Source: an uncultured bacterium (GTDB lineage: Bacteria > Omnitrophota > Gorgyraeia > Zapsychrales > Aceulaceae). From it: 64,000 nt of DNA. The stretch's first letter is position 1; each line of letters opens with the position of its first letter. The notes under the pieces are model-generated. The model searched no databases, was not told the origin of the DNA, and saw only the letters and a program-made list of their open reading frames with translations. The position numbers were made by a program, and so were the translations under genes. Shown piece by piece: positions 5,917 to 41,917 of the stretch. The stretch lies in the NCBI GenBank assembly GCA_937930175.1, contig CALGLP010000012.1:1130-65129 (forward strand), in the 5' to 3' direction.

Positions 5917-8900
5917 CTAACTTCCAACTTCTAATTTCTCTTCTTCTCCAAGCCCAAGCAACCCCATAAAATCTGTGACCGGAACAATGTTAATAATTAC
6001 TGGAATCAGACCTTTAATCTCTTGAAGATTCTCAAAACTCATATTTTGTGGCATCGCAAAATCGATTGCCTGACCTTGCGTTACAAGATTGATATTATCA
6101 GATTTAAAGTCGATGCCGCCGGGTCCGCTTGTAGCTTGCGAACCTTTTCCGCTCCCTGAGGGAGAGATCGTATCCGCAAGAGCGTTCCTTCTTTTTGTTG
6201 TCAAATATCGGCCAAAAAAATCTAACACCTGGTCAGAAATATCAGAAGGAAGCATTGTGTTTTTTATTACCTTGCCAACTTCTTTCGAAGCTTTCACCGC
6301 CATCTCTTCATCCCCCACAGTGCGAGAGTTGAATTTCCCATCCTCTGCAACCTTGGCCTGTCCATCGTCCTTCTTTTTAAACATATTCGATACGATCCCT
6401 TTGCCTTTCACAAACAACCCCCTGCCGCGATCCTTAAGACTTACGGTAAAATCTTGTTTTTCGATTTGATCCCATTTTCCCTCTGAAGCCAAACGCAAAG
6501 CAGTCATCTGTTCATTCGTTTTGTCAGGAAATTTATACCCCAACTTAGAAAATATTAATCCAGGAATCTCCATCTGGTCAACAGCCCGTATAATATAACC
6601 TACTTTCTTAAAGAATGTAGCCTCAAGAATTCTACCATCTGGGATTTGTGGCAACTGTCCAGGATGCAAAGCCATATAGCATAACCACTGCGCCAATTCA
6701 TGCATCCGCTTGCTTTTCCCAGCCAGGCCTTTTTCCCAAAGAGCCTTAAGTGTCAATGAAAATTCATCTGCTCCAAAATCCTCAGCTGACAACTCAGGAT
6801 TTAACACAAAATCATCCTGATCGATCGTTTCTTCTTCTAGAACAAACATCTTCTCATTGACCACGGCGTCCCGCCCCCCTGCAACAGACTCAAGGTCAGC
6901 ACGCGTCACCACCGCATCATTACGCCCCATGGAACCCAAGTCTAAAAAGACCAGCTCCAGCGAACCATCGTCACGTTTGTTGATCCAAATATTTCCGCCA
7001 TGCGGGTCCGCATGAAAGAACCCATCGACAAACATCTCTTCCATCAATTCGCCAAAGATCTTTTTCTTAAGCTGTCTGATCTCGTCCTTGGTCAACCCCA
7101 GCTCATCTTCAAGACGGCTATCTTCGTTTAACGGGACACCATGCATTTCTTCCTCAAAGATCGCCTGCCCGCGTAATGACTCAGGAAGCAGCTCATCGAG
7201 CTCCGTATAATTTTCTGCAGACCTCAAGAAAATCCGATGTGAACCGACAAAGAGCTCTTCAGTCCTGTTTGCCAAAATTTCCCTGTAACGCTTCTGATTG
7301 GCTCTTTCCACATAAAAATCGACCTCTTCCCTGAGATAAGAAGCCACCTGCTTTCCCATGTTTTTCGGGATATTCAAGCCCGACCGGCCAAGCGCATCCA
7401 AGATTTTCTCAAGAGTTTCTAGCTCCACATCAAGCACCTTGTCAATATGGGGCCGCTTAATCTTCATGACCACTCTTTTTCCGTCTGCCAGAACAACTCT
7501 ATAAACCAGCTTAATAGACGCACTGCCTAAACTGCTGCCCACATAAGCAAAATGTTTTCCAAAATCATCCCCTAACGCCAGACGCAAAAGCTGAAAAACA
7601 AACCGTTTGCCAAACGGATCTGCAGACGAAGATAGCTCCTGCAAAGCCTTCTTGACCAGAGAGTCAAGCCGGATGTCCGAATGACTGATGATCTGCGCCA
7701 GCTTGATGCCCACTAGGCCCATGGACTCAAAGAACGTCTTGATCAATTCAGGCACAGAGGATGTTCCATCGCTTTTCATCTTACCGGCCAAAGCACTGAT
7801 CACCTCAAGCGTCTTGTCCTCATCCAAATGTTGAAAAACAGTCCTGAAAATCTTCTTAAGACTTTTACGGTCGGCCATGCCTGCCGGCACACTTTTTTCA
7901 AACACAACATTTAGGAAGTGCGCCATACGCTCCGGATCACGCATGAGACCCTTCTTGCCGCCAAACAAAGATTCCATCAGGTCTTTTTTAGCGTTGGTGC
8001 CTATCGAGGAATACTTCGTCGAACCAAGCTCGGAGAAAATCTCTTTAAGATAACCCAAATCCGTGTGAGAAAAGAACTCGATCTCCATAACGGCAACGGG
8101 TTTTTCTTTTCTCAAGCCCATGATCCACAACGCAAACTCTTCCTTATCTAGGTTACTGGCTTTCTGAATGGTCTCGCGGATTTTGTTCTCAGCCGTGATC
8201 TTATTCTTAACCTTATCCTTAATCGCGTTTTCTTGTAAAAGCAACAAATGCTCTCGAACATCCTTATCTTCCTCTGGGATTCCCGCGCGCTCCATGATCT
8301 CCAGAAGAATATCATCCCGCGTAAAACTAAAGTCTGTAAAATATTGAAAAACTAGATCCATCTCCTGTTCAAAGGTCAACGACTGGCCCTCCTCCTTCTC
8401 CTTGATGCCCAGGGCAAGTTCCAGAGCTCGCAGACGAAACTTATCCCTGAAAAAATCCCGATACATAAGCGCCGAAAGCTGTTCCATCGCGCGTAATTTA
8501 TCGGATGCAGAAAGGCTAGCTTCCTGAAACGCCGATTCAGCCGCAGCGACCAAGAATTCATCCCGCACATAAGATGGCCGGGCAAAATATTCCTGCGTCT
8601 CACGCGCCAAGGCTTCCCAAGCCCTGCCTGCGCTCTGGGCTTTCTTCAAAATCATGTCCCGATATGGATATGCGGTCACAAGGTCGATCTGGGAATGAAT
8701 ATTCCCCTCCTCATTGAACTCGGCCTTGATACGTCCCCTGCTAAGACGGCCTGCCAGGGAGAGAAAAACAAAAAGCAAAGACCGGAAGGTCTGACTTAAA
8801 CGAAGAGGAGCGTATAATTCTTTCATTAATCTGAATTTCGTGCTGATGTCCATAAGCCGTTCCAACTCCTTGACCGGCAGGTCTGGCAAATGAAAAGGAC

Positions 8901-11900
8901 TTCCATACTTAGTTAAAGGAGACTCAGCAAACACGCTTCCTCCAAGTACCGATAGAAAAGGCAATATTTTCATAGCTCCCGGAATCTTTTCCAAATGCAG
9001 GATCGAATAGATTCTCAACCAGAATTTGTTCAGCAAATAAAATGAGCCGAACAAACAAGTAAAAAGAATCGGATCAAACATAACCTTAAATCTAGCCAAC
9101 CTGTTCCTTGCTTTATGACTTAGTCTCTTGGAAAAAGAGCTGAACAGAGTATACTCTTCAATCATCTCTTTTTCTTGGTGATTCACGGCCGCATTGCTAT
9201 CCGCGATCCATGCTGATATCAAGCCTGAAGTCACTCCGTTGATCTGCTTCATAAATCTGTCTTCTATCATCAAAGGCGCAATACTGCGCACAGCCGCCTG
9301 AAGCTCTTGATTATTGGCCAATTGTTTATTACTAAAACCACTCAAAACACGATCGAGATCATAAAATCGAGTCCACTTCTTCTGCCCCCGGATCCCCAGC
9401 GCAGAAGCAAGATGCTTGTCCCACAGAACATAATAAAGAAAAAGATCCCGAAAAGCAGATGACGGCATATAGTCTTTGGCAAAGGCTACCCAATGATCAA
9501 AGTCATACTGCGGGTTATCCTGGACAAAACTAAAGATCTTGAGCAGTCGTTTACGTTCAACGCTCGAAAAATGCAGGCGGTCCGTAGAATTTGTGCCTGA
9601 AATCAACCCCGCAAGAACAGCATGAACAGGAACGTTGCCCCTCCTTCTTAACAAGTCTTGAATCCACATTGTCCACAAAGTAAAATCAGGAACACGCGGA
9701 GGAGGGCGATAAAGCTTACTTGGAAATTCTCCGATTAATATCTGATAAGGATTATCCAGATCAGCTTGAACCGAAGAAACTGAAGAATTTTCTTCTGAAT
9801 AGAACCATGTGTTTTTATTCGAGTTTTTATTATGGGGGTGTTTGTATTTTTCCTGGGGATTTTGGGATCGGATCAGAAATGAAGCATTTTGACCCAGTGA
9901 TAGGTCAAAGTTAAATTTTTTATGGATCACATAATAACTTAACGGCACCAGATATTCCGACCATGTCATGGGGGTCAGAAAATACTTCTGAGCAAATCGC
10001 CGCTTTGTCTGAAGGGGCGTAAGAGCGTTAAGATAGGTAAACAAACCTTCAAGATCTTCAGCTGACAATCCAGAAATGGCATCGTCCAGCTGATCATAAA
10101 ATGTATCCATGGAAACAAACCCTCCCAGCCCAAAAAGATACATCCACTGCCTGATCTGCTGATTAAGATGGGAGACGCCTACAATAAAATCCTCACCCAG
10201 TCCCAGTTCCAGAGCCTGCGCCACAATAAACTTATTCGCATGCTCCATAATCTCCGCTGTTGCCGCTTCCTCCAGGATGCGTTCAGTATACTGAAAAAAT
10301 AAATTACTCAGAGTAGCAGGGTCATTATACGGATCCGTGATCGTAAACTCTTGTTGTCGTTCAGGCCTCTCATTCAATGCCTTGAACAGCGATTCGCTGT
10401 ACTTTAATTTCTCAACAGGTGTTGTAAAACCAAAATGCCCTTCAATGAACCCCAAGATATTCGGATCCTTTTGCAGAAGGACATAAAATTCAAAAAAGAC
10501 CTTTCCGGGATCATTGCCCCAGCGATCAAGAGAAAAATACTCGTTTTGGTCCAGCTTACCACGGGCAAAACCTGAAAGGATCGCCCCCGCGACAGACCGA
10601 CTAACAGCGCCTCTATCCTTTGAGAAAATAAGCATAATATCCTGACGATATCTTGCGTAATTGCTAGGATTAAAGATCAAGAGATCCAAGAAGAAATTCT
10701 GGCAGGACTGACTTTCAGATATCAATTCCGGAAAATTCTTGAACGTCTCAAGCAAAGTTTCCACCAGATCATCCGTAATCAGCTCAGTCTTTGCCTGCAA
10801 TCTGTCAATAATCTGCTCAACCGCAATCACGCCAATGCTATGATACATGACTACATATTTCTGCCAACCAACCTCCTTAGCCAAAAGGATCCTGTTCAAC
10901 AAATGGATGAGTTCCCTGACACTGAACTCATCAGCCCGGGCCTTAATGACGCCTTCGAGATCAAGTAAAAAATCGCTTGTCATCCAGCCTGCGCCCTTAC
11001 GCTGAACATCATGAGGAAATCTTTCGCGTTGCATCATAATGCCCTGACGTCTGCGACCTTCCTCGTCCTGGTGGATCAGGTCAAAGCGCCAGACAGATCC
11101 CAAGAGAGGATGATCAAAAACCCGGGCAAGATCTTCCTTAGGAAGCTTTTTGATTGAATCTATCAAAAACTTCTTCTCCGCCCCATGATCCAAGCCCTGC
11201 ACCTGCACAGGCATTGATTCCACTTCCCCGAAGAATGCGCGCATAGCGACCTTGCTGTAAAACGTTTGAATGCCATCTTCTGCCCGCGTCTCTTCTGCTT
11301 TGAGCGCCTCTAAGCGCTCTGCGGCCGCTTGGCCCAATTGTTTCAATTCTCGGTTCAATCCCATGTCTTGATATATCTGTTCAAAAACCTTTTTAATCTG
11401 AGGCGCAAAGGGTGCAATTTCTTTTTCAAGCTGAGGTAAAAGATCTTCTGTTAAAGGCTTTAATATGGTGCGAACCTCATCACTGCCTCTTTCTAAATAA
11501 GAACTGTTTGAAACAACGGGTTTGCTATAAGAAATTATGTTATCAACTTCGGTTAAACCCCAAGATATTCTATCCCTGACAATCGGGACAGGTCGCCAAT
11601 CCCTGTTATTAAGCAAATATTCAAGGAACCACATCAACAAACGATTATCCACATCAAATCGTTGATCTTGGTCTGCAGTCATATCCCTACTTTCTATAAT
11701 ACTCTGCCCTATCCTTAAGGAGTGATCCTTCTTGTACCCCATCGATAAAACAAAGCCATATTCCTGACTAGAAATACTCATGGGAAATAAGCCACGATTT
11801 AGTTTCTTAGACGCCATAGCATTTCTTAATCGCCACCAATTCCTTTTTTGAGGACGACCTCTTGAGTCTGGACGATCCAATCCCTGGCGCAATATTTCAG

Positions 11901-14900
11901 ACCGCGCAATCTCCATATAGCGGGTCAAGATCTGACGCAACTCTTCATGCAAACGGGTAAACTCTTTAAGCGCCGCGGAGTCCTTATTTAAATTCTGGTA
12001 TTCACTAACCTGAAATAACAATAGAGAATAAACCCCGTAGGTTGAGGCCATCTCTAGCTCTTTGGGAGTTTTGGCATCACGGATAAGCTCAAGGAGTTGG
12101 GCCGTGGTCCTGACGTTCATAAGCCGTGCGTGATACGTGCGCACCCGTGTACGTTCAAACTGATACGCCTGACCTTCCCAGCGCGTAAATTCCAAAGAAA
12201 AACCTTCAGAGAAAGGCTGGCTGGGCGCACGGTAATGCTTGAAATAATTGGGCTTTACAGCCTTAAGTATATTCCTGATCCTCTCTCCCAACAATGGATG
12301 ATTACCAAAAAAATTCTCCTTACGACCGTCCAGGTCCATGGCTTTTCTCAGCATTTCAAACGGCCTCTGGGCCTTCCCTACGGAATAACCCGCGCCGTCC
12401 ATGATCTCCAAGGCACGGCGATCGGCATCGATCTCATGAACGTAGACATCCACCTCTCCTTGAACATAACCCACGCTCCAATCATAACGGCCCCGCTCCA
12501 TCTTTCGTTTCATCTCGTCCAGCGTTTCGGGTTTGGGCGCTTCTCCCTTGTTGACTTTATCGCGGTCCTGAGTAATATGAGATATTTCATGCGCAAGGAT
12601 AAGCGCTATATGTTCTTTAAAAAACATAAAGAATTTCTCAGGATCCCCCTGACTGCGGCTTTCCTGGATAGCGTAAAAAAACTCCCACAGAAGCCCGATA
12701 TTAAGAACAATATGATTCGAGAAAGAAACGACAAAAGCATTGGCATCGGAATAATCTGCCAGATGAAAATGAAAGCTCCCCGGATCGTAGCCGGCACTCA
12801 CAAGAAGATTGTCGAATATTTCACGTAGTTCGCTGTAAACAGTCCTAAGCTCATCATCCCCATGACTGATGAGGCGGTATTCTTCTCTCGCATATTCAAT
12901 AAAAACATCCGCCGAATGCTGACTCACGTTATAACGCGCAGTCTCAGCGCGACGCTTCCATGTTTTAAGGGCGCTTTGGACATCTCCTTCGCCGCCCATG
13001 ACCTGAAAAACCGTATCCACCGGCGTTTCCCCGGATCTGTCCGCCGCATGAAGAAGGGTATCAAAAAACAGGGCCGCAAACAGCGAGGGGTCCATCCTGA
13101 CTGACAGAACATATTCGTTGATCCCGAAATATCCAGAACCACTTTCATAATTCATCATATACTTGGACGACCACTTGTCTTCTTCTCTCGGGACTACGCC
13201 GATCACAAGCCCGCCTTTGTCACCGGCCGCCTTGATCTGGCGGTGAAAAATCTCTTGATCTGCTGGAGAAAGCCGCTGATACCACTCTCCCAGAAGGGAC
13301 TGCCATTGATCCCGCGTCACACCACTATCGATCAAGTGGTGATCAATGGTGATGATTGTGCCGTCAAGCTCAAGCTGAACATTCCCCGTGCGACCAAGGG
13401 TCTCTCCCCGATAACGATCGACCTTTTTTGCTTCAAAATCCCTAGAATACCGCATGGCCTCAAATGTCGGCAGGCTTTGCCAGGACGTATTCTGCGCCTG
13501 ATCAGGTTCCCGCGCCTTCACGGGCGTGGAATTTCCTGTCTCAAGCGCTATTGGCGCTGATTGCTGTTCAAAGATTTCATTGCTGGAACTGGCTCTCGTC
13601 TCTATAGATTGATCAGTGACCGGAATATCCGACGACGCTACCCGCGGATTTTGGAAAAAGGGTGCCTCTGTTGATGTGCTTGTCCATTCTGGCGCTCTAG
13701 CTTGAACGGAGATTTCGTAGACTGTTTTCTGAGCTCCAGATTTTCTTATATAATTAATAAAAATATGACTTGGCTCTTGGCTTTCATGAAATGACGTATT
13801 TAGGTTCATGACCGTTACCCCTCCCGCAAAGTATTTCCGGGGGATGTTCTTTTTGGTGTAAGGATCATACTCCACCTTCATCATATTGCAGACGCCTTTT
13901 TTAAAGGTTTGGAGGTATTGTTGGTAAATGATTTGAACAGTATCTGGTGAAGAGTGAATAGTATCTAGAGAAGAATTATTCTGAGTTTGTGAAGGGTATC
14001 TGGTATCTAGTATCCGGTGCTTTTCTTCGCCATTTTCTAACGACTCTTCATTGCTTTTTTGGCTAGATACTAGATACTTTTCACTATTCACGACTTCTAG
14101 TCCTTTAACCTTTCTCTTATCCGCATACACCTTATTCAGTATTGAGTTCTTGAGATTCGTCTTATACCAGTAGCTTAAGATAATGCTGTTGTAGATCTGC
14201 CTTAGCTGGGCAAAGTTCTTGCCTTCATTGACTTCTTTTTCCAGGACAGGGATGAAGACCTCACGCACAATACTAGAAGAGATATCAGAAGATGGAGAAT
14301 GGACAATGGAAGATGGAAAAGTCTTAGAATCTAGGGAATCAGGACTTTTATTCGCTGTTGTCTTGTCGTTGTTTTTTCCATCTTCTATCTTCTCCCTTCT
14401 ATCTTCTTTACTTTTCTCTCTTGCTAAATAATCACTTTCCAGCATCACTTTTAATCGCGATTCAACGACAAAGGCCTTATCCTCTTGAACGTAGACTTCA
14501 GCCTTATCGGGCATGATCCAGACCTTGTTAAAGGTGTCGACAGGAACGTTCGTTGTCCCGAATTTCTCATAGGATTGCTTGTAAATCTTTTGCCAGAATT
14601 CTTTACCAAGATCACTATCAGGATTGGTTAAAGAGGCAGTTATTTGCTTTAAGAGATAGTCTTGGGCAAGCATATCAATACCCATCTCGGTAGTCCCAAG
14701 CTCTGCTGGAACGATGCGGTCTTTTTCATAGGGAGAAAGGTTGACCCAGAGATCATTCTCTGGAAGAGTAAGACTTGCCAGGAAGTAGCGGATAAGCTTT
14801 TCGCTTTCGCTCTTTAACTCATCCCCTTGAAGCCCGGAATCACCAGAATCGACAATAAAGTCGAACTTCAGGGGATTGTCAGGGTAGACACGTATTCCAC

Positions 14901-15081
14901 GAACCAGGGTAGGTGTGAAAGCCGGGCTTAAGGGGATGAGGGTATTACTAATAGCTGGTGCCAGGGTTTGAGACAAGGCTTCTTGAGGGGCGACACTCAT
15001 CAGCCCAAAAGAGAGTAAAAGACATAAAACAACCACCTTGTATAAAATAGAATTCTTATAAGTTCTTATATCATTTATCAT
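5917..15081 (-). CDS. Giant secreted multidomain protein A (3054 aa): signal peptide, family-specific N-domain, M48-type Zn-peptidase domain, UbiB/ABC1-type kinase domain, conserved C-terminal motif
   Basis: Single 9165-nt ORF. The N-terminus is hydrophobic (ILYKVVVLCLLLSFGLMSVA). The first roughly 420 aa are paralogous to the N-termini of the ORFs at 36386-42052 and 56961-62225 (shared FDFIVDSGD, YFLASLT, WVNLSPYEKDRI, VDTFNKVWIMP, LKVMLE, LEKEVNEGK, CNMMKVEYDPY). An M48 signature is present (ILAHEISHITQ ... EIDADRRALEIMDGAGY). UbiB kinase motifs are present (GIKLAQIISHSD..., VVMKIKRP, FHADPHGGNIW). The C-terminus GGIDF...IPVIINIVPVTDFMGLLGLGEEEKLEVGS is shared with the other giant ORFs. Confidence 0.8.
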   Translation of the reverse strand: MINDIRTYKNSILYKVVVLCLLLSFGLMSVAPQEALSQTLAPAISNTLIPLSPAFTPTLVRGIRVYPDNPLKFDFIVDSGDSGLQGDELKSESEKLIRYFLASLTLPENDLWVNLSPYEKDRIVPAELGTTEMGIDMLAQDYLLKQITASLTNPDSDLGKEFWQKIYKQSYEKFGTTNVPVDTFNKVWIMPDKAEVYVQEDKAFVVESRLKVMLESDYLAREKSKEDRREKIEDGKNNDKTTANKSPDSLDSKTFPSSIVHSPSSDISSSIVREVFIPVLEKEVNEGKNFAQLRQIYNSIILSYWYKTNLKNSILNKVYADKRKVKGLEVVNSEKYLVSSQKSNEESLENGEEKHRILDTRYPSQTQNNSSLDTIHSSPDTVQIIYQQYLQTFKKGVCNMMKVEYDPYTKKNIPRKYFAGGVTVMNLNTSFHESQEPSHIFINYIRKSGAQKTVYEISVQARAPEWTSTSTEAPFFQNPRVASSDIPVTDQSIETRASSSNEIFEQQSAPIALETGNSTPVKAREPDQAQNTSWQSLPTFEAMRYSRDFEAKKVDRYRGETLGRTGNVQLELDGTIITIDHHLIDSGVTRDQWQSLLGEWYQRLSPADQEIFHRQIKAAGDKGGLVIGVVPREEDKWSSKYMMNYESGSGYFGINEYVLSVRMDPSLFAALFFDTLLHAADRSGETPVDTVFQVMGGEGDVQSALKTWKRRAETARYNVSQHSADVFIEYAREEYRLISHGDDELRTVYSELREIFDNLLVSAGYDPGSFHFHLADYSDANAFVVSFSNHIVLNIGLLWEFFYAIQESRSQGDPEKFFMFFKEHIALILAHEISHITQDRDKVNKGEAPKPETLDEMKRKMERGRYDWSVGYVQGEVDVYVHEIDADRRALEIMDGAGYSVGKAQRPFEMLRKAMDLDGRKENFFGNHPLLGERIRNILKAVKPNYFKHYRAPSQPFSEGFSLEFTRWEGQAYQFERTRVRTYHARLMNVRTTAQLLELIRDAKTPKELEMASTYGVYSLLLFQVSEYQNLNKDSAALKEFTRLHEELRQILTRYMEIARSEILRQGLDRPDSRGRPQKRNWWRLRNAMASKKLNRGLFPMSISSQEYGFVLSMGYKKDHSLRIGQSIIESRDMTADQDQRFDVDNRLLMWFLEYLLNNRDWRPVPIVRDRISWGLTEVDNIISYSKPVVSNSSYLERGSDEVRTILKPLTEDLLPQLEKEIAPFAPQIKKVFEQIYQDMGLNRELKQLGQAAAERLEALKAEETRAEDGIQTFYSKVAMRAFFGEVESMPVQVQGLDHGAEKKFLIDSIKKLPKEDLARVFDHPLLGSVWRFDLIHQDEEGRRRQGIMMQRERFPHDVQRKGAGWMTSDFLLDLEGVIKARADEFSVRELIHLLNRILLAKEVGWQKYVVMYHSIGVIAVEQIIDRLQAKTELITDDLVETLLETFKNFPELISESQSCQNFFLDLLIFNPSNYARYRQDIMLIFSKDRGAVSRSVAGAILSGFARGKLDQNEYFSLDRWGNDPGKVFFEFYVLLQKDPNILGFIEGHFGFTTPVEKLKYSESLFKALNERPERQQEFTITDPYNDPATLSNLFFQYTERILEEAATAEIMEHANKFIVAQALELGLGEDFIVGVSHLNQQIRQWMYLFGLGGFVSMDTFYDQLDDAISGLSAEDLEGLFTYLNALTPLQTKRRFAQKYFLTPMTWSEYLVPLSYYVIHKKFNFDLSLGQNASFLIRSQNPQEKYKHPHNKNSNKNTWFYSEENSSVSSVQADLDNPYQILIGEFPSKLYRPPPRVPDFTLWTMWIQDLLRRRGNVPVHAVLAGLISGTNSTDRLHFSSVERKRLLKIFSFVQDNPQYDFDHWVAFAKDYMPSSAFRDLFLYYVLWDKHLASALGIRGQKKWTRFYDLDRVLSGFSNKQLANNQELQAAVRSIAPLMIEDRFMKQINGVTSGLISAWIADSNAAVNHQEKEMIEEYTLFSSFSKRLSHKARNRLARFKVMFDPILFTCLFGSFYLLNKFWLRIYSILHLEKIPGAMKILPFLSVLGGSVFAESPLTKYGSPFHLPDLPVKELERLMDISTKFRLMKELYAPLRLSQTFRSLLFVFLSLAGRLSRGRIKAEFNEEGNIHSQIDLVTAYPYRDMILKKAQSAGRAWEALARETQEYFARPSYVRDEFLVAAAESAFQEASLSASDKLRAMEQLSALMYRDFFRDKFRLRALELALGIKEKEEGQSLTFEQEMDLVFQYFTDFSFTRDDILLEIMERAGIPEEDKDVREHLLLLQENAIKDKVKNKITAENKIRETIQKASNLDKEEFALWIMGLRKEKPVAVMEIEFFSHTDLGYLKEIFSELGSTKYSSIGTNAKKDLMESLFGGKKGLMRDPERMAHFLNVVFEKSVPAGMADRKSLKKIFRTVFQHLDEDKTLEVISALAGKMKSDGTSSVPELIKTFFESMGLVGIKLAQIISHSDIRLDSLVKKALQELSSSADPFGKRFVFQLLRLALGDDFGKHFAYVGSSLGSASIKLVYRVVLADGKRVVMKIKRPHIDKVLDVELETLEKILDALGRSGLNIPKNMGKQVASYLREEVDFYVERANQKRYREILANRTEELFVGSHRIFLRSAENYTELDELLPESLRGQAIFEEEMHGVPLNEDSRLEDELGLTKDEIRQLKKKIFGELMEEMFVDGFFHADPHGGNIWINKRDDGSLELVFLDLGSMGRNDAVVTRADLESVAGGRDAVVNEKMFVLEEETIDQDDFVLNPELSAEDFGADEFSLTLKALWEKGLAGKSKRMHELAQWLCYMALHPGQLPQIPDGRILEATFFKKVGYIIRAVDQMEIPGLIFSKLGYKFPDKTNEQMTALRLASEGKWDQIEKQDFTVSLKDRGRGLFVKGKGIVSNMFKKKDDGQAKVAEDGKFNSRTVGDEEMAVKASKEVGKVIKNTMLPSDISDQVLDFFGRYLTTKRRNALADTISPSGSGKGSQATSGPGGIDFKSDNINLVTQGQAIDFAMPQNMSFENLQEIKGLIPVIINIVPVTDFMGLLGLGEEEKLEVGS
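13949..14093. repeat. In-frame palindromic insertion (hairpin-forming) within giant gene A, insertion 2
   Basis: The arms gtgaatagtatctag ... ctagatacttttcactattcac form an imperfect inverted repeat. The segment encodes a low-complexity stretch (NSEESLENGEEKH...SSLDTIHSSPD) that is absent from paralog B at the equivalent position. Confidence 0.45.
14273..14425. repeat. In-frame palindromic insertion within giant gene A, insertion 1 (tagaag-type)
   Basis: The arms agaagatggagaatggacaatggaagatggaaaag ... cttttttccatcttctatcttctcccttctatcttc form an inverted repeat. It encodes EDRREKIEDGKNN...SSIVHSPSSDISSS between the conserved LKVMLESDYLA and IVREVFIP blocks, and paralog B has only a short linker there. 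Confidence 0.5.
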
Positions 15082-36385: not shown

Positions 36386-39300
36386 TCACCCCTTGACCAC
36401 CTCAGCCACCGCAGGCTCCTGTGGTATGTCAAATCCAAGTTGCAACGGCAGATTAATGGGCGTCATCTCAAGGATGATAGGCCTCAAGATATCAATATAA
36501 ATGCTCTCCATATCCTGAAATGGCACCGCGAGCGGCACGCCCTGATCATCGGTCTTGATATTTAACTCTTTATACAATTGAGTCAAGTCCACGCCACCGG
36601 TAGGAGCCGAAGAAACTGAAAAATCAAAAAGTCCTAAAGAAGTAACAAGATCCCACATAAACTGAGAATCTTCAGAGCTTTCGTTCTTAACCATTCCTGC
36701 AAAAATCCTATAATCTTTATCAACGGAAAGGATTAACGCAAACCTTATATTAGTAAACTGTTGCGTATATGCTCTTAAATTATTCCCAAAAGTTTTATGA
36801 CTCTCCGTTGATATATTGCCTTTGACAATAACAGGAACAATAATCTTTGCCTTATTCCCGTCCCTGGCACCTTGGCTGATCTTCCGAAGCTTAGCTTCAA
36901 CCTCCTTTTGCCAAGCCCGCATCTGCCAGTCATCTTTAAAAACTTCCGGATCAATGGTAATGGCTTCTTCAAATAAATCACCATGTTCTTCTTTAAGAGT
37001 TTCTGCAAAACGTGAAGGATCAGGATGCAGAACACAAGCGCTCTGCAAAGAATTTGGATCCTTTACAAGCAAATCATATACTTGCTGAGCAGCCTGTTTT
37101 CTGGCTTTAGTCTTTTTATCATCAACAGCTGTTTCGCGAAGATTGATCAAGGAACGGATAAATTCAGCCGGTACTCCGCCTAAGGCCATAAACTCGCTGG
37201 CCAGAACAACAAAGCGGTCAAAAGAAAACTCCTTTGTGCTATAACGACTATCTTTCTTGTTTAAATCCCTATAAAAATTAACAGTAAAAGAATTTTCCGA
37301 AGGCTTCGCTAAAGCCCAGGACAAGAGATCTTGAATAACTGTCCTTTTGTCACGCAGCAAATCACCATGCATCTCTTTGTCAACGTCCATCATTTTATCC
37401 TTAAGCTCATTAAGCCTGGGGATCAGTTCATCCGTTAGACCTAAGCCTTGTAGCTGCGCTTTGGCAAATCTGACAAAATCGTCCTCGCCAATACCGGAAT
37501 GAGTGCTTTCTGCCAAATCCCGCACCAAGGCTCTGGCCGCAAAGGCATCCAGACGAAGAAGAGCATCCATAAAGTATAAAAAGTTGTCTTCAGTGAATCG
37601 ATACCGATCAACCCCCCCGTTATTAGGACTAAAAATAATATCCTTTGATGTCAGGGCATCTTCAGGCGGCAGATCTCTCGAAAGCACTTCCTTGGCATAT
37701 CTTGCTAAAATCGGCAAAAGACGCTTATCCGTCTTGATCAGGCTGATCAACCTAGTATCAACTATGAACTTCTTATACCGACCGTCTTCATCCTTATTCC
37801 CGCGAAGAATGAGATCCAGATTGGGCCACGTTACCAAAGCATCACCCTGCTCATTAATCGACTTACGCGCATTTGTAGCTGATGAACTGGCCGTGAACTT
37901 GACAACCCAGTCACCACGCATGCTAGATGGCTTAGTCAACGTAACCTTGCCTTCAGAATACTGATAGGTGATGGTGAAAATGTCAGTACAACTCCCGCGA
38001 AAGCTAGGGCCTTCAAAAGTACCCCCTAATTTTGTTATAATAATTGGATTTCCTATATACCTGCCAATCTTATTTAAAACCTGTGTATTGATTACATCGG
38101 GAGTTTCAAACGATCCCGGAAGCTTAAAACTCTCAGCTTTTTCTTTAATACTCGAACTAACAACAGTCGTAACCTTCCAATCCCCTGATTTCTGCGCTGT
38201 AATCGTTCTCTGAGCGTTTTTTAAACCTCGCTGATAAACGACGACCTTGCCCACTAAAATATCGGTCTTTATTGTTTTCCAGCCATTATAGGCATACTCT
38301 TCTGAAATCAGGCGCGCTACCTTTTCCTCGGATAGAACTCTCGAATAGGTCTTAAGCCCAGAGCTGATCTTTTCTGGCGCTGAAACGGCAACAGCAGGAG
38401 CAAATCCATTTTTTGCTAATTCTTTGAGTATGACTTGCCTGATCCATGACGGTTCATCCAGGCCGCGATACTCTGGCGATGACTCAAGAGCGCGATTGAC
38501 GTTTTCGGCGATCTTAAAAGCCATGTCAAAACTGCCTAGAGATTCTTTCGCCTTGCCGTAGAGGTCCTGAAAAGTCACCTCGCGGCCAAAAAGATCTGAA
38601 AGGATCTTCAAGGCATCCTCACCGTTATACGCTTTGGTCATTGACTCAGAAGAAAATCGGTTGACAGAAAATTTTCTTGATCTGACAAGCGACAGGATGC
38701 CTAAGATCGACCAGATTTGACCATCAGCCTCAGGGTCTAAATCCTTGCCCATCAACACCAGAAGCTCATCTCGTGTAAGGGAAAAACCAGGACGAATAAA
38801 TTTAGGATTTGAATCCTTAGAAGCACGATTACGCAAACTCAATCCCAGAGAATCCCTAATCCACTCCTCATAAGACTCTTTATATACTTTTCCATCCGGT
38901 CTAATGTAGACATGCAGGGATTTTAATTCTTGCATCTTGCCTGTGCGATCAACATAGAACCAGGGAGCTGCTTGCTCGCGAAAACGAAACTCGCCAGGAT
39001 AATCACTTTCGATCACAACATTCTCGCCAATTTCAACCCCGCTAAGGTCGACACGGCCACGGATCACGCCAGAAAAAGAGGTTTCACGAAAAGTGATAGA
39101 ACTCTTACTCCTTATGAAATCTATGCTAGGAATCGACACCCTTGGACCCCTTTGCTTCCTTGCTTTTTCTTTTTTCTTATCCGCATTGGTTGAGGTGCCA
39201 AATTCTTCAGATGAATTATCCAAGGTGGTGGTCAACAAATACCACTCCTCATGCTCCCGGAACACAAGATAGGTCAATTGACCGTCCTGAACACCGATCC

Positions 39301-41917
39301 GTGTTTGATCGCTAGAGATCCGGATTTGCGCAGGAAGAATCTTAAATTTTCTCGAAAGAAATACGACCACGGCGAAAACATCTTTTCCCGATAACTCAGA
39401 AACCTCAAATGGTCCCGAAATCACCTGCGCTTTCGGCTCTGTATCGCGCAGCACAGAGGGAACGCTCGGAGACGCCTTGGCCTGCTGAAACGGAATCGGA
39501 GCTCCAAAAGAATCCTTATAAGAAACGACAACAAATCGTGGACCTGCCATCTCCACACCCATAACGGAACTATCTTGGAACGTGATCCATAATCCAGGGA
39601 TCTCGACAGGAAGAGGTTTATTTTCAGAGAAAATTTCCAAGACTTTATAAGGCGAAAGACTCATAGGAAAAATACCCTTAGGTCTTTTATTTACTGCCTC
39701 TGCAATAATCGCCGCCACTTTTTCAGGCGTGAGAGTAAGCGATAAATAAGGAATCTTTGCCGACTCTGTCGGCAGAACAGGCGTTGTTTGATTCGTGGGA
39801 CTTGGTGACTGGGTAAAATCAACATCCTGATTATTCTTGTCGACAACGCCTGAGATCTTCCAACTATTCTTAGAAAAATCCCTTGTAATCAAAATCTTCA
39901 AATCACCATACATCAAGGTAATGGAAACAATTTCTTCCAGCTTGTGAGCACGAGGATCATACTCTTCCAAGAAGAAATTTCCATGAGGAACGTTACGCAC
40001 CACAAACGTCTTTTCAGGGTTTCCATACCCTAAAGCTTCATTTATCTGCGCGGTAATCTCTTCAACAGAAAGCTTGGCGTCTAAATGCGGGATCTTGATA
40101 TTGGAAGATGTCTTGACGACTACTGCTGGACGGGCTGGTCGCTGTGGTAAATGATTAATTTCTACAACTTTCCATTGCGTATTGTCTTCATTTAAACTTT
40201 TTACTTTAACATAACTCGATCCGCCAAAATGGATCTCAACATAAATAATGTCATCGCTGCCATCAACCTCCATCCACATGCTTTCTATTGATTTCCATTC
40301 AGCCCACTCAAGATCCCTTTGTTCACCATCTGAAAAATACACAACTACTTTATCAATCATGCGTCCAGCGTATGTCTTCCACACATCATTTAGCATGGTC
40401 TCGCCAGACCCATTAATAATTTGATTGATCGCTAAACCAGACGATATACGTTTTTTACTCTTAAACGTATACACAACCCACTGGTCGGTGAGATTCTTTA
40501 ACTCTTTATAAGATCCACGCGGGGCAACGGCAACAACGCGGAAGTTACCGGAAATTATTTCGACTGGGCTTAGCGGCGCATTACCGGTCGTAATTTTAGC
40601 TTTTTTGCGATCAATGCTTTGATTATACTTTTTTAGAAGATACTTCCTAATTCGGTCTTGCTTCCATACTTTCGCGCCTTTCTCATCAATAAAATACCGC
40701 TTCTTTCTTTCCCATGGCGAGGTCGATCTTTGGCGAGGCTTAATCCGAGACTTTTTGTTAGACAGGACTGAGCTTATTTTAATATTGCCGCCTCCCTTGC
40801 CAACAATCGTTTCTATTTGACCAGACGTTGGAAAATTGGTCTGCGTTAAATTAATCTCAACCAATGGAATACCCCCGGAGAAATATTTTCGGGCAACATT
40901 ACGCTTGGCTTGAGCGTCGTACTCTGCACGGATCAAATTATACGCCCCTTGTTTGTAAGCAGTTAAATACGAATCATAAATCTTTTGCTTCACAGCCTTA
41001 TCCGTCAAATCAATACCGTTTATTTTGGATTTGTTGACATAGGCTTGACCTAAAAGACTATCTTTTAAATTCTTCTTAAACCATGTTCCTAAGATAAGGG
41101 CATTATAGGCCTGACGCAAGGCGGCAAAATGTTTTCCATTATTCACTTCTTTTTCAAGTTCGGGGATCACAATGTCGCGGACGATTTGGGAGGCAAGTTC
41201 TTGGCTCTTGGCTCTTGGCTCATTGGTTTTGCTATCAGCTATGAGCGATGAGCTCTGAGCTTTTTGCAGCGCGAGGTAATCCTCTTCCAGCATCACCTTT
41301 AAGGACGCCTCGGCCACAAAGGCCATGTTGCCATAGCGATACACAACCGCCTTGTCCGGCATGATCCATACCTTATTAAAAGTATCAACCGGGATCTGCG
41401 TGGTTTGATAGGTTTCATAGGCCTTTTTGTAAACCTTATCCCAAAACTTTTTTCCAAGATCGTTTTCAGGATGGATCATCGATGCGGTAAATTGTTTTAA
41501 GACATAGTCCTGCGCGAGCAAATCGCGGCCCAAATCCGTTTGTGCCAAGGCATCAGGAATGATCCGGTCTTTTTCATACGGAGAGAGATTGACCCACAAG
41601 TCTTTTTCAGGGATCGTCAGAGACGCCAAGAAATATTTGATCATCTTCTCCGATTCCTTCTTTAAAGCCTCGCCTTGAAGATTATCATCGCCATCATTCA
41701 CAATAAAATCAAACTGAAACGGGCTATCCGAGTGGACCTCAACACCTGTCATCATGGCCGGATGAAAGACTGGAGTTGGCGCAAGCAGAGTGCCAGGTGC
41801 GGGCAAGTTGAGCGCTTGAGCAAATCCAGAGGATGGCAAAATAAGATTGACAACAAAACAAACACAGACAAGGCAACGAATCGCCTTTGAGGACCAGTTT
41901 TTTCTAAATGTAAACAT
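36386..41917 (-). CDS. Giant secreted protein B (about 1843 aa from internal Met; ORF-track version 1888 aa to 42052) with family N-domain and C-terminal motif
   Basis: The internal Met at 41917 gives a good signal peptide (MFTFRKNWSSKAIRCLVCVCFVVNLILPSSGFAQA). Conserved N-domain blocks are present (FDFIVNDGDD, YFLASLT, WVNLSPYEKDRI, VDTFNKVWIMPDKA, LKVMLEEDYLA, LEKEVNNGK). The C-terminus is GGVDL...PIILEMTPINLPLQLG. No enzyme motif was recognised in the central 1400 aa. Confidence 0.7.
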   Translation of the reverse strand: MFTFRKNWSSKAIRCLVCVCFVVNLILPSSGFAQALNLPAPGTLLAPTPVFHPAMMTGVEVHSDSPFQFDFIVNDGDDNLQGEALKKESEKMIKYFLASLTIPEKDLWVNLSPYEKDRIIPDALAQTDLGRDLLAQDYVLKQFTASMIHPENDLGKKFWDKVYKKAYETYQTTQIPVDTFNKVWIMPDKAVVYRYGNMAFVAEASLKVMLEEDYLALQKAQSSSLIADSKTNEPRAKSQELASQIVRDIVIPELEKEVNNGKHFAALRQAYNALILGTWFKKNLKDSLLGQAYVNKSKINGIDLTDKAVKQKIYDSYLTAYKQGAYNLIRAEYDAQAKRNVARKYFSGGIPLVEINLTQTNFPTSGQIETIVGKGGGNIKISSVLSNKKSRIKPRQRSTSPWERKKRYFIDEKGAKVWKQDRIRKYLLKKYNQSIDRKKAKITTGNAPLSPVEIISGNFRVVAVAPRGSYKELKNLTDQWVVYTFKSKKRISSGLAINQIINGSGETMLNDVWKTYAGRMIDKVVVYFSDGEQRDLEWAEWKSIESMWMEVDGSDDIIYVEIHFGGSSYVKVKSLNEDNTQWKVVEINHLPQRPARPAVVVKTSSNIKIPHLDAKLSVEEITAQINEALGYGNPEKTFVVRNVPHGNFFLEEYDPRAHKLEEIVSITLMYGDLKILITRDFSKNSWKISGVVDKNNQDVDFTQSPSPTNQTTPVLPTESAKIPYLSLTLTPEKVAAIIAEAVNKRPKGIFPMSLSPYKVLEIFSENKPLPVEIPGLWITFQDSSVMGVEMAGPRFVVVSYKDSFGAPIPFQQAKASPSVPSVLRDTEPKAQVISGPFEVSELSGKDVFAVVVFLSRKFKILPAQIRISSDQTRIGVQDGQLTYLVFREHEEWYLLTTTLDNSSEEFGTSTNADKKKEKARKQRGPRVSIPSIDFIRSKSSITFRETSFSGVIRGRVDLSGVEIGENVVIESDYPGEFRFREQAAPWFYVDRTGKMQELKSLHVYIRPDGKVYKESYEEWIRDSLGLSLRNRASKDSNPKFIRPGFSLTRDELLVLMGKDLDPEADGQIWSILGILSLVRSRKFSVNRFSSESMTKAYNGEDALKILSDLFGREVTFQDLYGKAKESLGSFDMAFKIAENVNRALESSPEYRGLDEPSWIRQVILKELAKNGFAPAVAVSAPEKISSGLKTYSRVLSEEKVARLISEEYAYNGWKTIKTDILVGKVVVYQRGLKNAQRTITAQKSGDWKVTTVVSSSIKEKAESFKLPGSFETPDVINTQVLNKIGRYIGNPIIITKLGGTFEGPSFRGSCTDIFTITYQYSEGKVTLTKPSSMRGDWVVKFTASSSATNARKSINEQGDALVTWPNLDLILRGNKDEDGRYKKFIVDTRLISLIKTDKRLLPILARYAKEVLSRDLPPEDALTSKDIIFSPNNGGVDRYRFTEDNFLYFMDALLRLDAFAARALVRDLAESTHSGIGEDDFVRFAKAQLQGLGLTDELIPRLNELKDKMMDVDKEMHGDLLRDKRTVIQDLLSWALAKPSENSFTVNFYRDLNKKDSRYSTKEFSFDRFVVLASEFMALGGVPAEFIRSLINLRETAVDDKKTKARKQAAQQVYDLLVKDPNSLQSACVLHPDPSRFAETLKEEHGDLFEEAITIDPEVFKDDWQMRAWQKEVEAKLRKISQGARDGNKAKIIVPVIVKGNISTESHKTFGNNLRAYTQQFTNIRFALILSVDKDYRIFAGMVKNESSEDSQFMWDLVTSLGLFDFSVSSAPTGGVDLTQLYKELNIKTDDQGVPLAVPFQDMESIYIDILRPIILEMTPINLPLQLGFDIPQEPAVAEVVKG

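What the first reader, a model, noticed from the sequence alone, without database searches (positions are those of the whole stretch)
5917..15081. Protein A couples an M48 (BepA/HtpX-like) peptidase domain with a UbiB/ABC1 atypical kinase domain in one 3054-aa exported protein
An M48 domain (ILAHEISHITQ with downstream E and ADRRALEIMDGAGY) lies about aa 900-1000. A UbiB domain (GIKLAQIISHSD.., VMKIKRP, FHADPHGGNIW...LDLG) lies about aa 2300-2600. UbiB/ADCK kinases are normally inner-membrane or organellar lipid-metabolism proteins, and finding one embedded in a Sec-exported giant protein alongside a protease is very unusual. It suggests effector-like functions, such as acting on prey or host membranes, or self-processing.
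Basis: partly seen in the sequence, partly recalled or inferred. Interest (0 to 1): 0.65.

Follow-up and report, generated by a model that had tools for sequence, protein, structure and literature searches.

The report
Exported giant protein with protease and UbiB ATPase
A real 3,054-residue protein of an uncultured Omnitrophota bacterium carries a zinc protease and a UbiB-type ATP-using domain behind a standard export signal, a fixed combination seen in many relatives, which raises the question of where an exported enzyme gets its ATP.

Summary
ORF 5917..15081(-) encodes 3,054 aa with a Peptidase_M48 domain (aa 746-958) and an ABC1/UbiB domain (aa 2443-2723). Both pass Pfam thresholds and match solved folds (3C37/BepA; COQ8A/Rv3197). 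All catalytic residues are invariant in 27 aligned proteins.

It is not a one-off. In 28 proteins the order is always M48, 800-1,200 aa spacer, a family-specific helical 'pre-ABC1' domain, then ABC1.

This cassette is one cargo type of a very large family named only from Omnitrophota (7,831 clusters at 50% identity). Its members are built as Sec-type signal peptide, constant N-domain of about 385 aa, variable cargo, and constant C-terminal domain of about 60 aa. The N-domain has no Pfam or PDB relative. The window holds four members.

I found no convincing internal transmembrane helix, so the ATP-dependent domain is predicted to lie outside the producer's cytoplasm. My best reading is a coupled protease and lipid/protein ATPase that works at a membrane in another cell, as an effector. 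This is inferred, not shown. The main rivals are a periplasmic envelope role and a cytoplasmic tether. I rate it a new variant of known kinds, interest 0.6.

The parts
5917..15081 (-). Protein A, a 3,054-aa ORF including its stop codon
   Evidence: The same architecture recurs in 26 aligned orthologs.
14971..15081 (-). Sec-type signal peptide, aa 1-37. R6, K9 and K15 precede the h-region at aa 12-30, and the c-region ends ALS|Q.
   Evidence: The crude insertion energy is 0.1 kcal/mol, against at least 5.3 for any internal segment.
13816..14970 (-). Constant N-domain of the family, aa 38-422, ending at PRKYFAGG. It contains two low-complexity inserts.
   Evidence: Shared with window paralogs C and D at 42-54% identity. 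7,831 clusters at 50% identity match it. No Pfam, NCBIfam or PDB relative. AF2 pLDDT is 75-90.
12208..12846 (-). M48 zinc metalloprotease domain, aa 746-958. Key residues: HEISH 831-835, E883/D887 in HEIDAD, H928/R934 in NHPLLGER.
9223..9546 (-). The only detectably conserved block of the spacer, aa 1846-1953. It contains YMPSSAFRDLFL.
   Evidence: hhalign against an ortholog subgroup gives Prob 79.5%, E=1.5e-5. There is a matching identity bump in the MAFFT profile.
8737..9099 (-). Insertion specific to protein A, aa 1995-2115, with three weakly hydrophobic segments. These are not convincing transmembrane helices.
7768..8628 (-). Family-specific helical 'pre-ABC1' domain, aa 2152-2438. It carries two FPxxSxxRDxxL-type motifs and an LLW...KP motif.
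   Evidence: In the full-length proteins it is found only together with ABC1; the one exception, P0233, is a 763-aa fragment from a 2.4-kb contig with pre-ABC1 and ABC1.
6913..7755 (-). ABC1/UbiB atypical-kinase-like core, aa 2443-2723. Key residues: KLAQ 2460-2463, GSASIK 2519-2524, K2540, E2586/E2592, H2690, D2692, N2697, D2714. C-lobe helices continue to about aa 2870 after an acidic insertion.
5920..6123 (-). Constant C-terminal domain of the family, aa 2987-3054 (GGIDF...GLIPVIINIVPVTDFMGLLGLG...)
   Evidence: Shared with paralogs C, D and E. Present in 183 of 228 N-domain proteins and ends a median of 9 aa before the C-terminus. AF2 confidence is low.
36386..42052 (-). Paralog C (1,888 aa). 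Same N- and C-domains, different cargo with no Pfam hit.
56961..62225 (-). Paralog D (1,754 aa). Same N- and C-domains, different cargo with no Pfam hit.
62293..64000 (-). Paralog E, the C-terminal part of a fourth family member cut by the window end. It lies in tandem with D.

Best explanation
Protein A is a true gene of an Omnitrophota bacterium. It belongs to a very large family, named only from that phylum, of modular exported proteins.

Every member has four parts: a cleavable Sec-type signal peptide, a constant N-domain of about 385 aa, a variable cargo of 190 to about 5,000 aa, and a constant C-domain of about 60 aa placed at the very C-terminus.

Protein A carries one conserved cargo cassette of about 2,000 aa. 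It consists of a soluble BepA/3C37-like M48 zinc protease, a long helical spacer, a family-specific helical pre-ABC1 domain, and a UbiB/COQ8-type ATP-binding domain with a complete catalytic set.

Shown here:
- the architecture;
- its recurrence in fixed order;
- the invariance of both active sites;
- the fold assignments;
- the signal-peptide features;
- the absence of convincing internal transmembrane helices.

Inferred:
- Sec exports the protein.
- The constant N- and C-modules direct a later sorting step, either surface display or secretion.
- The protease and the UbiB domain work together at a membrane surface. The UbiB domain uses ATP to bind, extract or phosphorylate a hydrophobic (isoprenoid-type) lipid or a membrane protein, as proposed for COQ8. 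The M48 domain cuts membrane-associated proteins.
- Because ATP use is conserved, the place of action is most simply the cytoplasmic side of a membrane in another cell. Omnitrophota are thought to be epibiotic predators or parasites, so this would be an effector role.
For: Domain and fold evidence:
- HMM hits for both domains.
- Matches to PDB sequences.
- Confident AF2 models with Foldseek matches to 3C37/BepA and to COQ8A/Rv3197.

Active sites:
- H831, E832, H835, E883, D887, Q2463, E2592, D2692, N2697 and D2714 are invariant in 27 sequences. K2540, E2586 and H2690 are conserved in at least 90%.

Coupling of the two domains:
- They co-occur in fixed order in 28 proteins.
- M48 appears without ABC1 in only 3.

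Family frame:
- The N- and C-domains are shared by four ORFs in the window.
- The N-domain matches 7,831 clusters, always starting about aa 45. The C-domain ends about 9 aa from the C-terminus.
- The boundary is sharp: A and P0001 are identical through PRKYFAGGV and unrelated afterwards.

Export:
- N-termini have on average 3.4 K/R before the h-region and 0.6 after it. An AxA|Q-type motif follows in 95 of 112.
- There is no internal hydrophobic segment comparable to the signal h-region, in A or in its orthologs.

Context:
- Other family members carry cytoplasm-type or eukaryote-flavoured domains behind the same signal. Examples are DOT1, SNF2, mTERF, DnaJ, HTH, response regulators, Ser/Thr kinase with PP2C, and glycolytic enzymes.
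- Giant Omnitrophota proteins with glycolytic and PPDK domains predicted to be extracellular have been noted (10.1101/2023.11.21.568195).
- RNA of the Omnitrophota predator V. archaeovorus is found inside dead prey cells (PMC13153191).
- COQ8 is proposed to use its ATPase activity to extract CoQ intermediates from the membrane (PMC11495197).
- ABC1 kinases and an M48 protease share one lipid-droplet proteome in cyanobacteria and plastids (PMC12223511).
Against: - There is no experimental localisation, and no dedicated predictor (SignalP, DeepTMHMM) was available. The topology rests on simple hydrophobicity and charge rules.
- No secretion system or other partner gene is conserved next to the cassette gene in six loci.
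- The cassette is conserved at only about 27-30% identity across diverse lineages, with fixed order. That looks more like an old housekeeping function than a fast-evolving effector.
- The constant N- and C-domains have no known fold or function. The C-domain model is unreliable.
- Nothing here shows that the two catalytic domains touch the same substrate.
Confidence: 0.42

Rival explanations
1. Own-envelope maintenance factor. After Sec export the protein stays in the producer's periplasm or on its surface. The M48 domain works like BepA in quality control of outer-membrane or LPS-assembly proteins. The UbiB-like domain serves as a lipid-binding or lipid-handing module, either without ATP or with an unknown periplasmic nucleotide source.
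For: - The best fold matches of the protease include periplasmic BepA.
- The cassette is old and keeps a fixed order across divergent lineages.
- Envelope genes sit nearby in three of six loci: lpxB and an MsbA-like ABC transporter in the window, lipid A/Kdo/heptosyltransferase/Lpt genes in L009, and capsule export genes in L010.
Against: - All ATP-binding and catalytic residues of the UbiB domain are invariant or conserved in at least 90% of sequences. That is hard to explain without ATP, and ATP is not known in the periplasm.
- The neighbourhoods are not conserved. L011 is a mobile-element region and L012 a heat-shock locus.
- In the window, lpxB is convergent with protein A and not co-transcribed.
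- The BepA equivalog model scores 17.8 bits against a cut-off of 570, and no TPR domain was found.
Confidence: 0.25
2. Cytoplasmic tether. The N-terminal hydrophobic segment is an uncleaved anchor, or the topology rule fails in this phylum. The cargo then faces the producer's own cytoplasm, and the family is a set of membrane-tethered enzyme scaffolds. The M48-UbiB cassette would act on the inner face of the cytoplasmic membrane, like HtpX and UbiB.
For: - It removes the ATP problem.
- It also explains the SAM-, NAD- and DNA-dependent cargo domains of other family members.
- The authors of the giant-gene study themselves warn that an overlooked transmembrane helix could invert the predicted localisation of glycolytic domains.
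- Canonical UbiB and HtpX act at the cytoplasmic face (established knowledge).
Against: - The positive-inside rule argues the opposite orientation: 3.4 K/R before the h-region against 0.6 in the 25 residues after it.
- A signal-peptidase-type AxA|Q motif follows the h-region in 95 of 112 members.
- No second hydrophobic segment could flip the chain, in A or in 16 orthologs.
Confidence: 0.2
3. Self-processing. The M48 domain cuts its own polypeptide to release the UbiB module or other pieces after export. This would resemble what has been proposed for C39 and S8 peptidase domains in giant Omnitrophota proteins.
For: - The proposal for other giant proteins provides precedent.
- The protease lies N-terminal to a long, poorly conserved spacer.
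- This reading is compatible with any of the localisation models.
Against: - M48 is not a general maturation device of the family. It occurs with ABC1 in 28 of 31 cases and is absent from nearly all other cargo types.
- No conserved cleavage-site motif was found.
- M48 enzymes are not known as cis-acting autoproteases (established knowledge).
Confidence: 0.15
4. Artefact: a chimeric assembly, a fused gene call or a decaying pseudogene.
For: No exact or close full-length ortholog is on record. The best hits cover only 16% of the query.
Against: - The reading frame is uninterrupted over 9.2 kb.
- The same domain order occurs in 27 independent proteins from many samples.
- The active sites are invariant.
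- Base composition matches the neighbours.
Confidence: 0.02

Closest known systems
UbiB family atypical kinases/ATPases: COQ8A/ADCK3, E. coli UbiB, plant and cyanobacterial ABC1K, mycobacterial Rv3197/MABP-1
   Same: - Pfam ABC1 match.
- COQ8A-like fold, including the N-terminal KxGQ helix.
- An Ala/Ser-rich loop in place of the Gly-rich loop.
- The beta3 Lys, the ELDFxxEAxN motif, HxDxHxGN and the DxG Asp are all present.
   Different: - It scores far below the UbiB equivalog cut-offs: 97 against 487.55 bits for TIGR01982 and 78 against 667 for PRK04750.
- The KxGQ motif reads KLAQ.
- There is no C-terminal transmembrane helix.
- The domain is preceded by a 290-aa helical domain not seen in ordinary UbiB proteins.
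- It is embedded in a 3,054-aa protein with a signal peptide.
- It is fused to a protease.
M48 peptidases: E. coli BepA, Geobacter Q74D82 (PDB 3C37), HtpX, Ste24/ZMPSTE24, OMA1
   Same: - HExxH plus a downstream ExxAD glutamate, and the HPxxxxR motif.
- The fold matches 3C37 (TM 0.60) and BepA.
- Like BepA and 3C37, it is a soluble domain without membrane helices.
   Different: - Only the first half of the Pfam profile matches.
- The BepA equivalog model fails, at 17.8 against 570 bits.
- No TPR domain was detected.
- It sits in the middle of a giant chain.
Plastoglobule and cyanoglobule proteome: ABC1K kinases together with the M48 protease PGM48/sll1280
   Same: This is the only documented setting I found where UbiB-family proteins and an M48 protease work on the same lipid-rich surface (PMC12223511).
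   Different: - There they are separate proteins on an intracellular lipid droplet of phototrophs.
- Here they form one polypeptide behind an export signal in an anaerobic, non-photosynthetic lineage.
- No functional link between the two was tested there or here.
Giant Omnitrophota proteins ('Archaeovorins', West-Roberts et al. 2023 preprint; Seymour et al. 2023)
   Same: - The same phylum.
- An N-terminal signal.
- Long regions without annotated domains.
- Cytoplasm-type enzyme domains predicted to be outside the cell.
   Different: - Those proteins are 20,000 to over 80,000 aa with many transmembrane helices. Protein A is 3,054 aa with none.
- Those papers mention neither UbiB, ABC1 nor M48.
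- Whether they share the N- and C-domains described here was not tested.
Modular effector and polymorphic-toxin architectures: CdiA, Rhs, MARTX, and secreted effector kinases of pathogens
   Same: - Constant trafficking ends with swappable cargo.
- Sharp recombination boundaries.
- Several paralogs per genome, often in tandem.
- Cargo that needs cytoplasmic cofactors.
   Different: - There is no sequence or fold relation to any of them.
- No immunity gene or dedicated secretion genes lie nearby.
- The cargo is mostly metabolic or regulatory rather than toxic.
- The comparison is by analogy only.

Membership tests
ABC1/UbiB protein-kinase-like family (Pfam PF03109) | Profile match above the curated cut-off | tested here: met
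   99.5 bits against a cut-off of 22.9, E=2.2e-28, aa 2483-2722
ABC1/UbiB protein-kinase-like family (Pfam PF03109) | COQ8A-type fold, with the N-terminal helical extension folded onto the kinase core | tested here: met
   AF2 pLDDT 75-93 over aa 2170-2720. Foldseek returns COQ8A 7udq at E=2.5e-10 and TM 0.62, plus 4ped, 5yjz and 7cyr.
ABC1/UbiB protein-kinase-like family (Pfam PF03109) | Catalytic set: beta3 Lys, alphaC Glu, HxD catalytic Asp, Asn, and the metal-binding Asp of DxG | tested here: met
   K2540, E2586, D2692, N2697 and D2714 are present. All are invariant or at least 90% conserved in 27 sequences.
ABC1/UbiB protein-kinase-like family (Pfam PF03109) | Invariant KxGQ motif in the N-terminal extension (a feature recalled from the ADCK3 structure paper) | tested here: inconclusive
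   A has K2460-L-A-Q2463. Q is invariant and K is in the majority, but Gly is replaced by Ala in A and in most orthologs, and some have RQLAQ.
UbiB proper (NCBIfam TIGR01982 / PRK04750 equivalogs) | Score above the equivalog cut-off | tested here: not met
   97.1 against 487.55 bits, and 77.7 against 667 bits. It is a family member, not an ortholog of the ubiquinone-pathway UbiB.
UbiB proper (NCBIfam TIGR01982 / PRK04750 equivalogs) | Genomic or functional link to quinone biosynthesis | not tested
   No ubi or men genes were seen among the neighbours scanned in the window. The rest of the genome is not available.
Peptidase family M48 (Pfam PF01435) | Profile match above the curated cut-off | tested here: met
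   28.3 bits against a cut-off of 20.3, E=1.8e-6, but only profile positions 6-78 of 186
Peptidase family M48 (Pfam PF01435) | Zinc site: HExxH plus a third-ligand Glu in an ExxAD motif | tested here: met
   H831, E832, H835, E883 and D887 are invariant in 27 sequences.
Peptidase family M48 (Pfam PF01435) | M48 fold | tested here: met
   pLDDT 80-96. Foldseek returns 3c37 at E=7e-6 and TM 0.60, and BepA 6ait at E=3.5e-5.
BepA (NCBIfam NF052400 equivalog) | Score above the cut-off, and a C-terminal TPR domain | tested here: not met
   17.8 against 570 bits. There is no TPR Pfam hit in protein A.
Sec/SPase I secreted proteins | n-h-c signal peptide with a small-x-small cleavage motif | tested here: met
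   Simple rules only: K/R before the h-region, h-region at aa 12-30, ALS|Q at 35-38. An AxAQ-type motif is present in 95 of 112 family members. No dedicated predictor and no experiment.
Archaeovorin-type giant proteins (West-Roberts et al. 2023 preprint) | Giant size (tens of thousands of aa) with many transmembrane helices | tested here: not met
   3,054 aa with no convincing internal transmembrane helix. Only the phylum and the kind of cargo are shared.
Omnitrophota N-domain/C-domain framed family (defined here) | Signal peptide, N-domain starting about aa 45 and ending at PRKYF(S/A)GG, and C-domain (GGID...PVI..I.P...LG) at the extreme C-terminus | tested here: met
   Local HMMs place the N-domain at aa 46-426 and the C-domain at aa 2987-3049 in A. 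183 of 228 members carry both.

The most novel reading that the evidence does not exclude
The proteins framed by the N- and C-domains are the substrates of an undescribed Omnitrophota delivery route. That route moves cytoplasm-type enzymes out of the tiny predator or parasite and into, or onto, its host cell.

The M48-UbiB cassette would be a conserved effector of that route. It would use host ATP to pull isoprenoid lipids, such as archaeal membrane lipids or quinone-like carriers, out of the host membrane while the protease cuts the host's membrane proteins.
Probability: 0.15. Interest if true: 0.85.

Novelty: new variant of a known kind. Interest (0 to 1): 0.6.

Why it matters
UbiB/COQ8 proteins are among the least understood members of the kinase superfamily. 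Every characterised one works inside the cell that makes it, at a quinone-containing membrane.

A conserved UbiB domain with an intact ATP site, sitting behind an export signal and permanently coupled to an M48 protease, offers two things:
- It is a natural experiment on what these domains do: lipid handling or protein phosphorylation.
- It gives an evolutionary argument that M48 proteases and UbiB proteins act together. So far only their co-occurrence on plastid and cyanobacterial lipid droplets hinted at this.

The surrounding family has at least 7,800 sequence clusters, no Pfam model, constant ends and swappable cargo. It may be a main tool by which Omnitrophota deal with their hosts, and it restates in a tractable size range (2-5 thousand residues) the puzzle already noted for their giant proteins: why are cytoplasmic enzymes predicted to be outside the cell?

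Tried and rejected
- **Exact-sequence look-up of protein A.** Not on record.
- **Two further word-indexed homolog searches.** I queried with the ABC1 region alone and with a 7-sequence profile of pre-ABC1 plus ABC1. They returned only 7-8 ordinary UbiB-like proteins and missed the known orthologs. They therefore say nothing about the cassette's distribution outside Omnitrophota.
- **Genome-collection scan.** It gave only paralogs matching the constant ends, and no cargo ortholog.
- **Conserved gene neighbourhood.** Six loci were compared and no shared partner was found. The apparent LPS/envelope link holds in only three.
- **Relatives of the N-domain.** Pfam, NCBIfam, a profile search against PDB sequences, Foldseek against the PDB and Foldseek against viral models were all negative.
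- **Defence-system models (PADLOC).** No hits.
- **Internal transmembrane helices that would put the UbiB domain in the cytoplasm.** The only candidates (aa 2004-2113) are weakly hydrophobic and specific to protein A. I rejected this as a general explanation.
- **The spacer, aa 959-2151.** BLAST finds no similarity. hhalign finds one block only.
- **Promoter and terminator scan upstream of the gene.** Nothing above the shuffle expectation.
Full report
**Observation**

The minus-strand ORF 5917..15081 is real and encodes 3,054 aa.
- HEISH is at aa 831-835.
- HEIDADRRA is at 882-890.
- KLAQ is at 2460-2463.
- VMKIKRP is at 2538-2544.
- FHADPHGGN is at 2689-2697.
- LDLG is at 2713-2716.

Pfam gives ABC1 (PF03109) at aa 2483-2722, with E=2.2e-28 and 99.5 bits against a cut-off of 22.9. 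It gives Peptidase_M48 (PF01435) at aa 751-838, with E=1.8e-6 and 28.3 bits against a cut-off of 20.3.

NCBIfam places the kinase-like region with UbiB models, but far below their equivalog cut-offs. It places aa 882-955 with BepA at E=0.0012.

PDB sequence searches align the N-lobe with mycobacterial ABC1 proteins and COQ8A/B. They align the second half of the protease with the M48 peptidase 3C37.

**Structure**

I made two AlphaFold models from alignments of protein A with 26 orthologs.
- In the first (aa 31-1080) the N-domain (aa 50-320) has pLDDT 75-90 and the protease (aa 720-970) has 80-96.
- In the second (aa 2101-3054) aa 2170-2720 is confident, with pTM 0.60. The last 70 residues are not.

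Foldseek against the PDB gives:
- for the second model, COQ8A (E=2.5e-10, TM 0.62), then Rv3197 and MSMEG_1954, with RIO kinases far behind.

Both domain assignments are therefore sound.

**Catalytic residues**

In the alignments of 27 proteins the following are invariant or at least 90% conserved:
- For M48: H831, E832, H835, E883 and D887 (invariant), and Q838, H928 and R934 (at least 90%).
- For ABC1: Q2463, E2592, D2692, N2697 and D2714 (invariant), and K2540, E2586 and H2690 (at least 90%).

The UbiB-specific KxGQ motif reads KLAQ in A and in most orthologs. The Gly-rich loop is replaced by GSASIK, as in the family's Ala-rich loop. Both domains look catalytically competent.

**It is a conserved cassette**

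A search with the whole protein returned at least 1,500 hits. All that carry a source name come from Candidatus Omnitrophota. About 25 of the top 120 are annotated with both PF01435 and PF03109, and are named 'AarF/UbiB family protein' or 'M48 family metalloprotease' by NCBI or JGI.

- 228 carry the N-domain.
- 31 carry M48.
- 30 of the N-domain proteins carry ABC1.
- 28 carry both, always in the order N-domain, M48, 800-1,200 aa, pre-ABC1, ABC1, C-domain.

M48 without ABC1 occurs three times. In full-length proteins the 290-aa helical pre-ABC1 domain never occurs without ABC1.

Identity between A and these orthologs is only about 27-33% in the two enzyme regions. It is undetectable by BLAST in the spacer. 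hhalign recovers one conserved spacer block at aa 1846-1953.

This sample is enriched for the cassette by the way it was collected. Among the 150 proteins with the N-domains most similar to A's, none has the canonical cassette. The cassette is therefore probably a small fraction of the family.

**The family**

Protein A shares its first roughly 430 aa (42-54% identity) and its last roughly 60 aa with ORFs 36386..42052 and 56961..62225. It shares its C-terminus with ORF 62293..63981. That last ORF is open to the window end, so it is a truncated fourth member.

A full HMMER scan of 1.84 billion representative proteins with the N-domain alone found 7,831 clusters at E up to 0.001, of which 5,874 are at 1e-30 or better. 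In the 150 best hits listed, the domain always lies at the protein's N-terminus.

In 180 complete members:
- the N-domain starts at a median of residue 45;
- the C-domain ends a median of 9 residues before the C-terminus;
- the cargo between them is 190 to 4,978 aa, median 1,619.

Neither constant domain has a Pfam, NCBIfam or PDB relative.

The cargo domains of other members are strikingly cytoplasmic or regulatory:
- SAM methyltransferases, GNAT and HAD domains;
- response regulators, Ser/Thr kinase with PP2C, and FHA;
- HTH, DnaJ, SNF2 helicase, mTERF and DOT1;
- PPDK, triose-phosphate isomerase, FBPase, PGI, GAPDH, isocitrate lyase and malate synthase.

The module boundary is sharp. A and P0001, which has a different cargo, are identical through PRKYFAGGV and unrelated afterwards. 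A's C-terminal tail is nearly identical to that of its window paralog E. Members often lie in tandem.

Every named source is Omnitrophota. The one exception is a MAG labelled Planctomycetales.

**Topology**

The N-terminus has the three regions of a Sec signal peptide. Across 112 family N-termini:
- the mean is 3.4 K/R before the hydrophobic core;
- the mean is 0.6 K/R in the 25 residues after it;
- an AxA|Q-type motif follows the core in 95.

A crude insertion-energy scan gives 0.1 kcal/mol for aa 12-30 and at least 5.3 for every internal segment. That is the same range as buried strands of the protease core.

Sixteen orthologs checked show no internal hydrophobic helix either. The weakly hydrophobic stretch at aa 1995-2115 is an insertion specific to A.

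So the mature chain, including the ATP-dependent domain, is predicted to lie outside the cytoplasmic membrane. This is a prediction from simple rules, not a measurement.

**Context**

The gene lies in ordinary chromosomal surroundings:
- downstream of its 3' end: tsf, rpsB, an MsbA-like ABC transporter and a convergent lpxB;
- upstream of its start: a response regulator, a nitroreductase, the Bat/MoxR operon and PFOR.

Four ortholog loci have different neighbours: LPS genes, capsule export, a mobile element and heat-shock genes. No partner gene is conserved.

**How it most likely works**

Shown:
- a fixed fusion of a soluble BepA-like zinc protease and a UbiB-type ATP-binding domain, both with intact active sites;
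- the fusion carried as one cargo type of a modular family with signal peptides.

Inferred:
- The strict pairing of the two enzymes, against a background of freely swapped cargo, argues that they act on one target.
- Both parent families work at membrane surfaces on hydrophobic substrates.
  - COQ8 is proposed to use its ATPase to extract quinone intermediates from the membrane (PMC11495197).
  - ABC1K proteins and an M48 protease share the lipid-droplet proteome of cyanobacteria and plastids (PMC12223511).
- Because the ATP site is conserved while the protein is predicted to leave the cytoplasm, the simplest place of action is the cytoplasmic side of another cell's membrane.
- This fits the proposed epibiotic, predatory or parasitic life of Omnitrophota (PMC10066038).
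- It fits the transfer of predator RNA into prey cells (PMC13153191).
- It fits the earlier puzzle of glycolytic domains predicted outside the cell in giant Omnitrophota proteins (10.1101/2023.11.21.568195).

I put this reading at about 0.4.

The main rivals are:
- a periplasmic, BepA-like envelope role (0.25), weakened by the conserved ATP site;
- a cytoplasmic tether with inverted topology (0.2), weakened by the charge distribution and the cleavage motif;
- self-processing by the protease (0.15). This is not exclusive of the others, but it is unlikely as a family-wide device, because M48 hardly occurs with other cargo.

**Comparison and novelty**

The two domains are members of known families, and membership was tested and met. 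They are not orthologs of UbiB or BepA, since the equivalog scores were not met.

The three Omnitrophota papers I could read never mention UbiB, ABC1 or M48. A search for secreted UbiB effectors found nothing relevant.

The architecture exists in databases under automatic names only. I rate it a new variant of known kinds. The enclosing family may deserve more attention than the single protein.

**Limits**
- There was no dedicated signal or topology predictor.
- Two of the three large homolog searches were uninformative because of the word index.
- The spacer at aa 1081-2100 was not modelled.
- There is no experimental data of any kind.

Noticed in passing
window 36386-42052(-), 56961-62225(-), 62293-64000(-): There are three more members of the same family in the window (1,888 aa, 1,754 aa, and one cut by the window end). 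They have the same N- and/or C-terminal modules and cargo without any Pfam hit. The last two lie in tandem.
   Followed up: partly
window 13816-14970(-), and 7,831 database clusters: The N-domain of about 385 aa defines a very large family with no Pfam, NCBIfam or PDB relative. It sits at the N-terminus, right after a signal peptide, in every hit examined. The AF2 model is confident, yet no fold match was found in the PDB.
   Followed up: partly
window 13816-13840(-) (aa 414-422), compared with P0001: There is a sharp recombination-like boundary. Protein A and P0001 are identical through PRKYFAGGV and then unrelated. The closest N-domains belong to proteins with other cargo, so the constant ends track lineage while cargo is exchanged.
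   Followed up: partly
window 5920-6123(-), and the C-termini of paralogs: The C-terminal domain (GGIDF...PVIINIxPVTDFMGLLGLGE.EKLEVGS) is almost identical between protein A and paralog E, although their cargo differs. Its function is unknown and the AF2 confidence is low.
   Followed up: partly
window 8737-9099(-) (aa 1995-2115): This insertion, found only in protein A, has three weakly hydrophobic segments. An odd number of them spanning the membrane would place the UbiB domain in the cytoplasm, but the hydrophobicity is too low to support that.
   Followed up: partly
window aa 1871-1882, 2165-2177, 2247-2259 of protein A; orthologs likewise: A repeated motif of the type [FY](F/M)PxxSxxRDxxL marks the pre-ABC1 domain twice and the conserved spacer block once. 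This suggests an internally repeated helical unit.
   Followed up: partly
L009 6463-7626; L011 16121-17365 and 17658-18818; L012 5225-6391: A gene for an AAA_14 + DUF4143 ATPase lies next to the M48-UbiB cassette gene in three of four ortholog loci. It is not present next to protein A in the window.
   Followed up: no
one search hit list (P0001, P0056, P0101, P0118, P0107, P0109 and others): Other family members carry DOT1, mTERF, DnaJ, SNF2 helicase, HTH, response-regulator and glycolytic enzyme domains behind the same signal peptide. These domains are normally cytoplasmic, and some are typical of eukaryotes.
   Followed up: no
window 17266-24417(-): There is a complete Bat/MoxR-type operon: MoxR AAA ATPase, DUF58, two VWA proteins (one with a BatA N-terminal domain), a TPR protein and BatD. 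A TPR-SH3 protein follows it at 16476-17288.
   Followed up: no
window 24488-27787(-): This 1,099-aa ORF has no Pfam hit and lacks the family's N- and C-domains.
   Followed up: no
L002, L004 (contigs CAZAOD010000063.1 and CAZAOD010000040.1): A MAG labelled 'uncultured Planctomycetales' carries at least three members of this family, two of them in tandem. Either the label is wrong or the family reaches beyond Omnitrophota.
   Followed up: no
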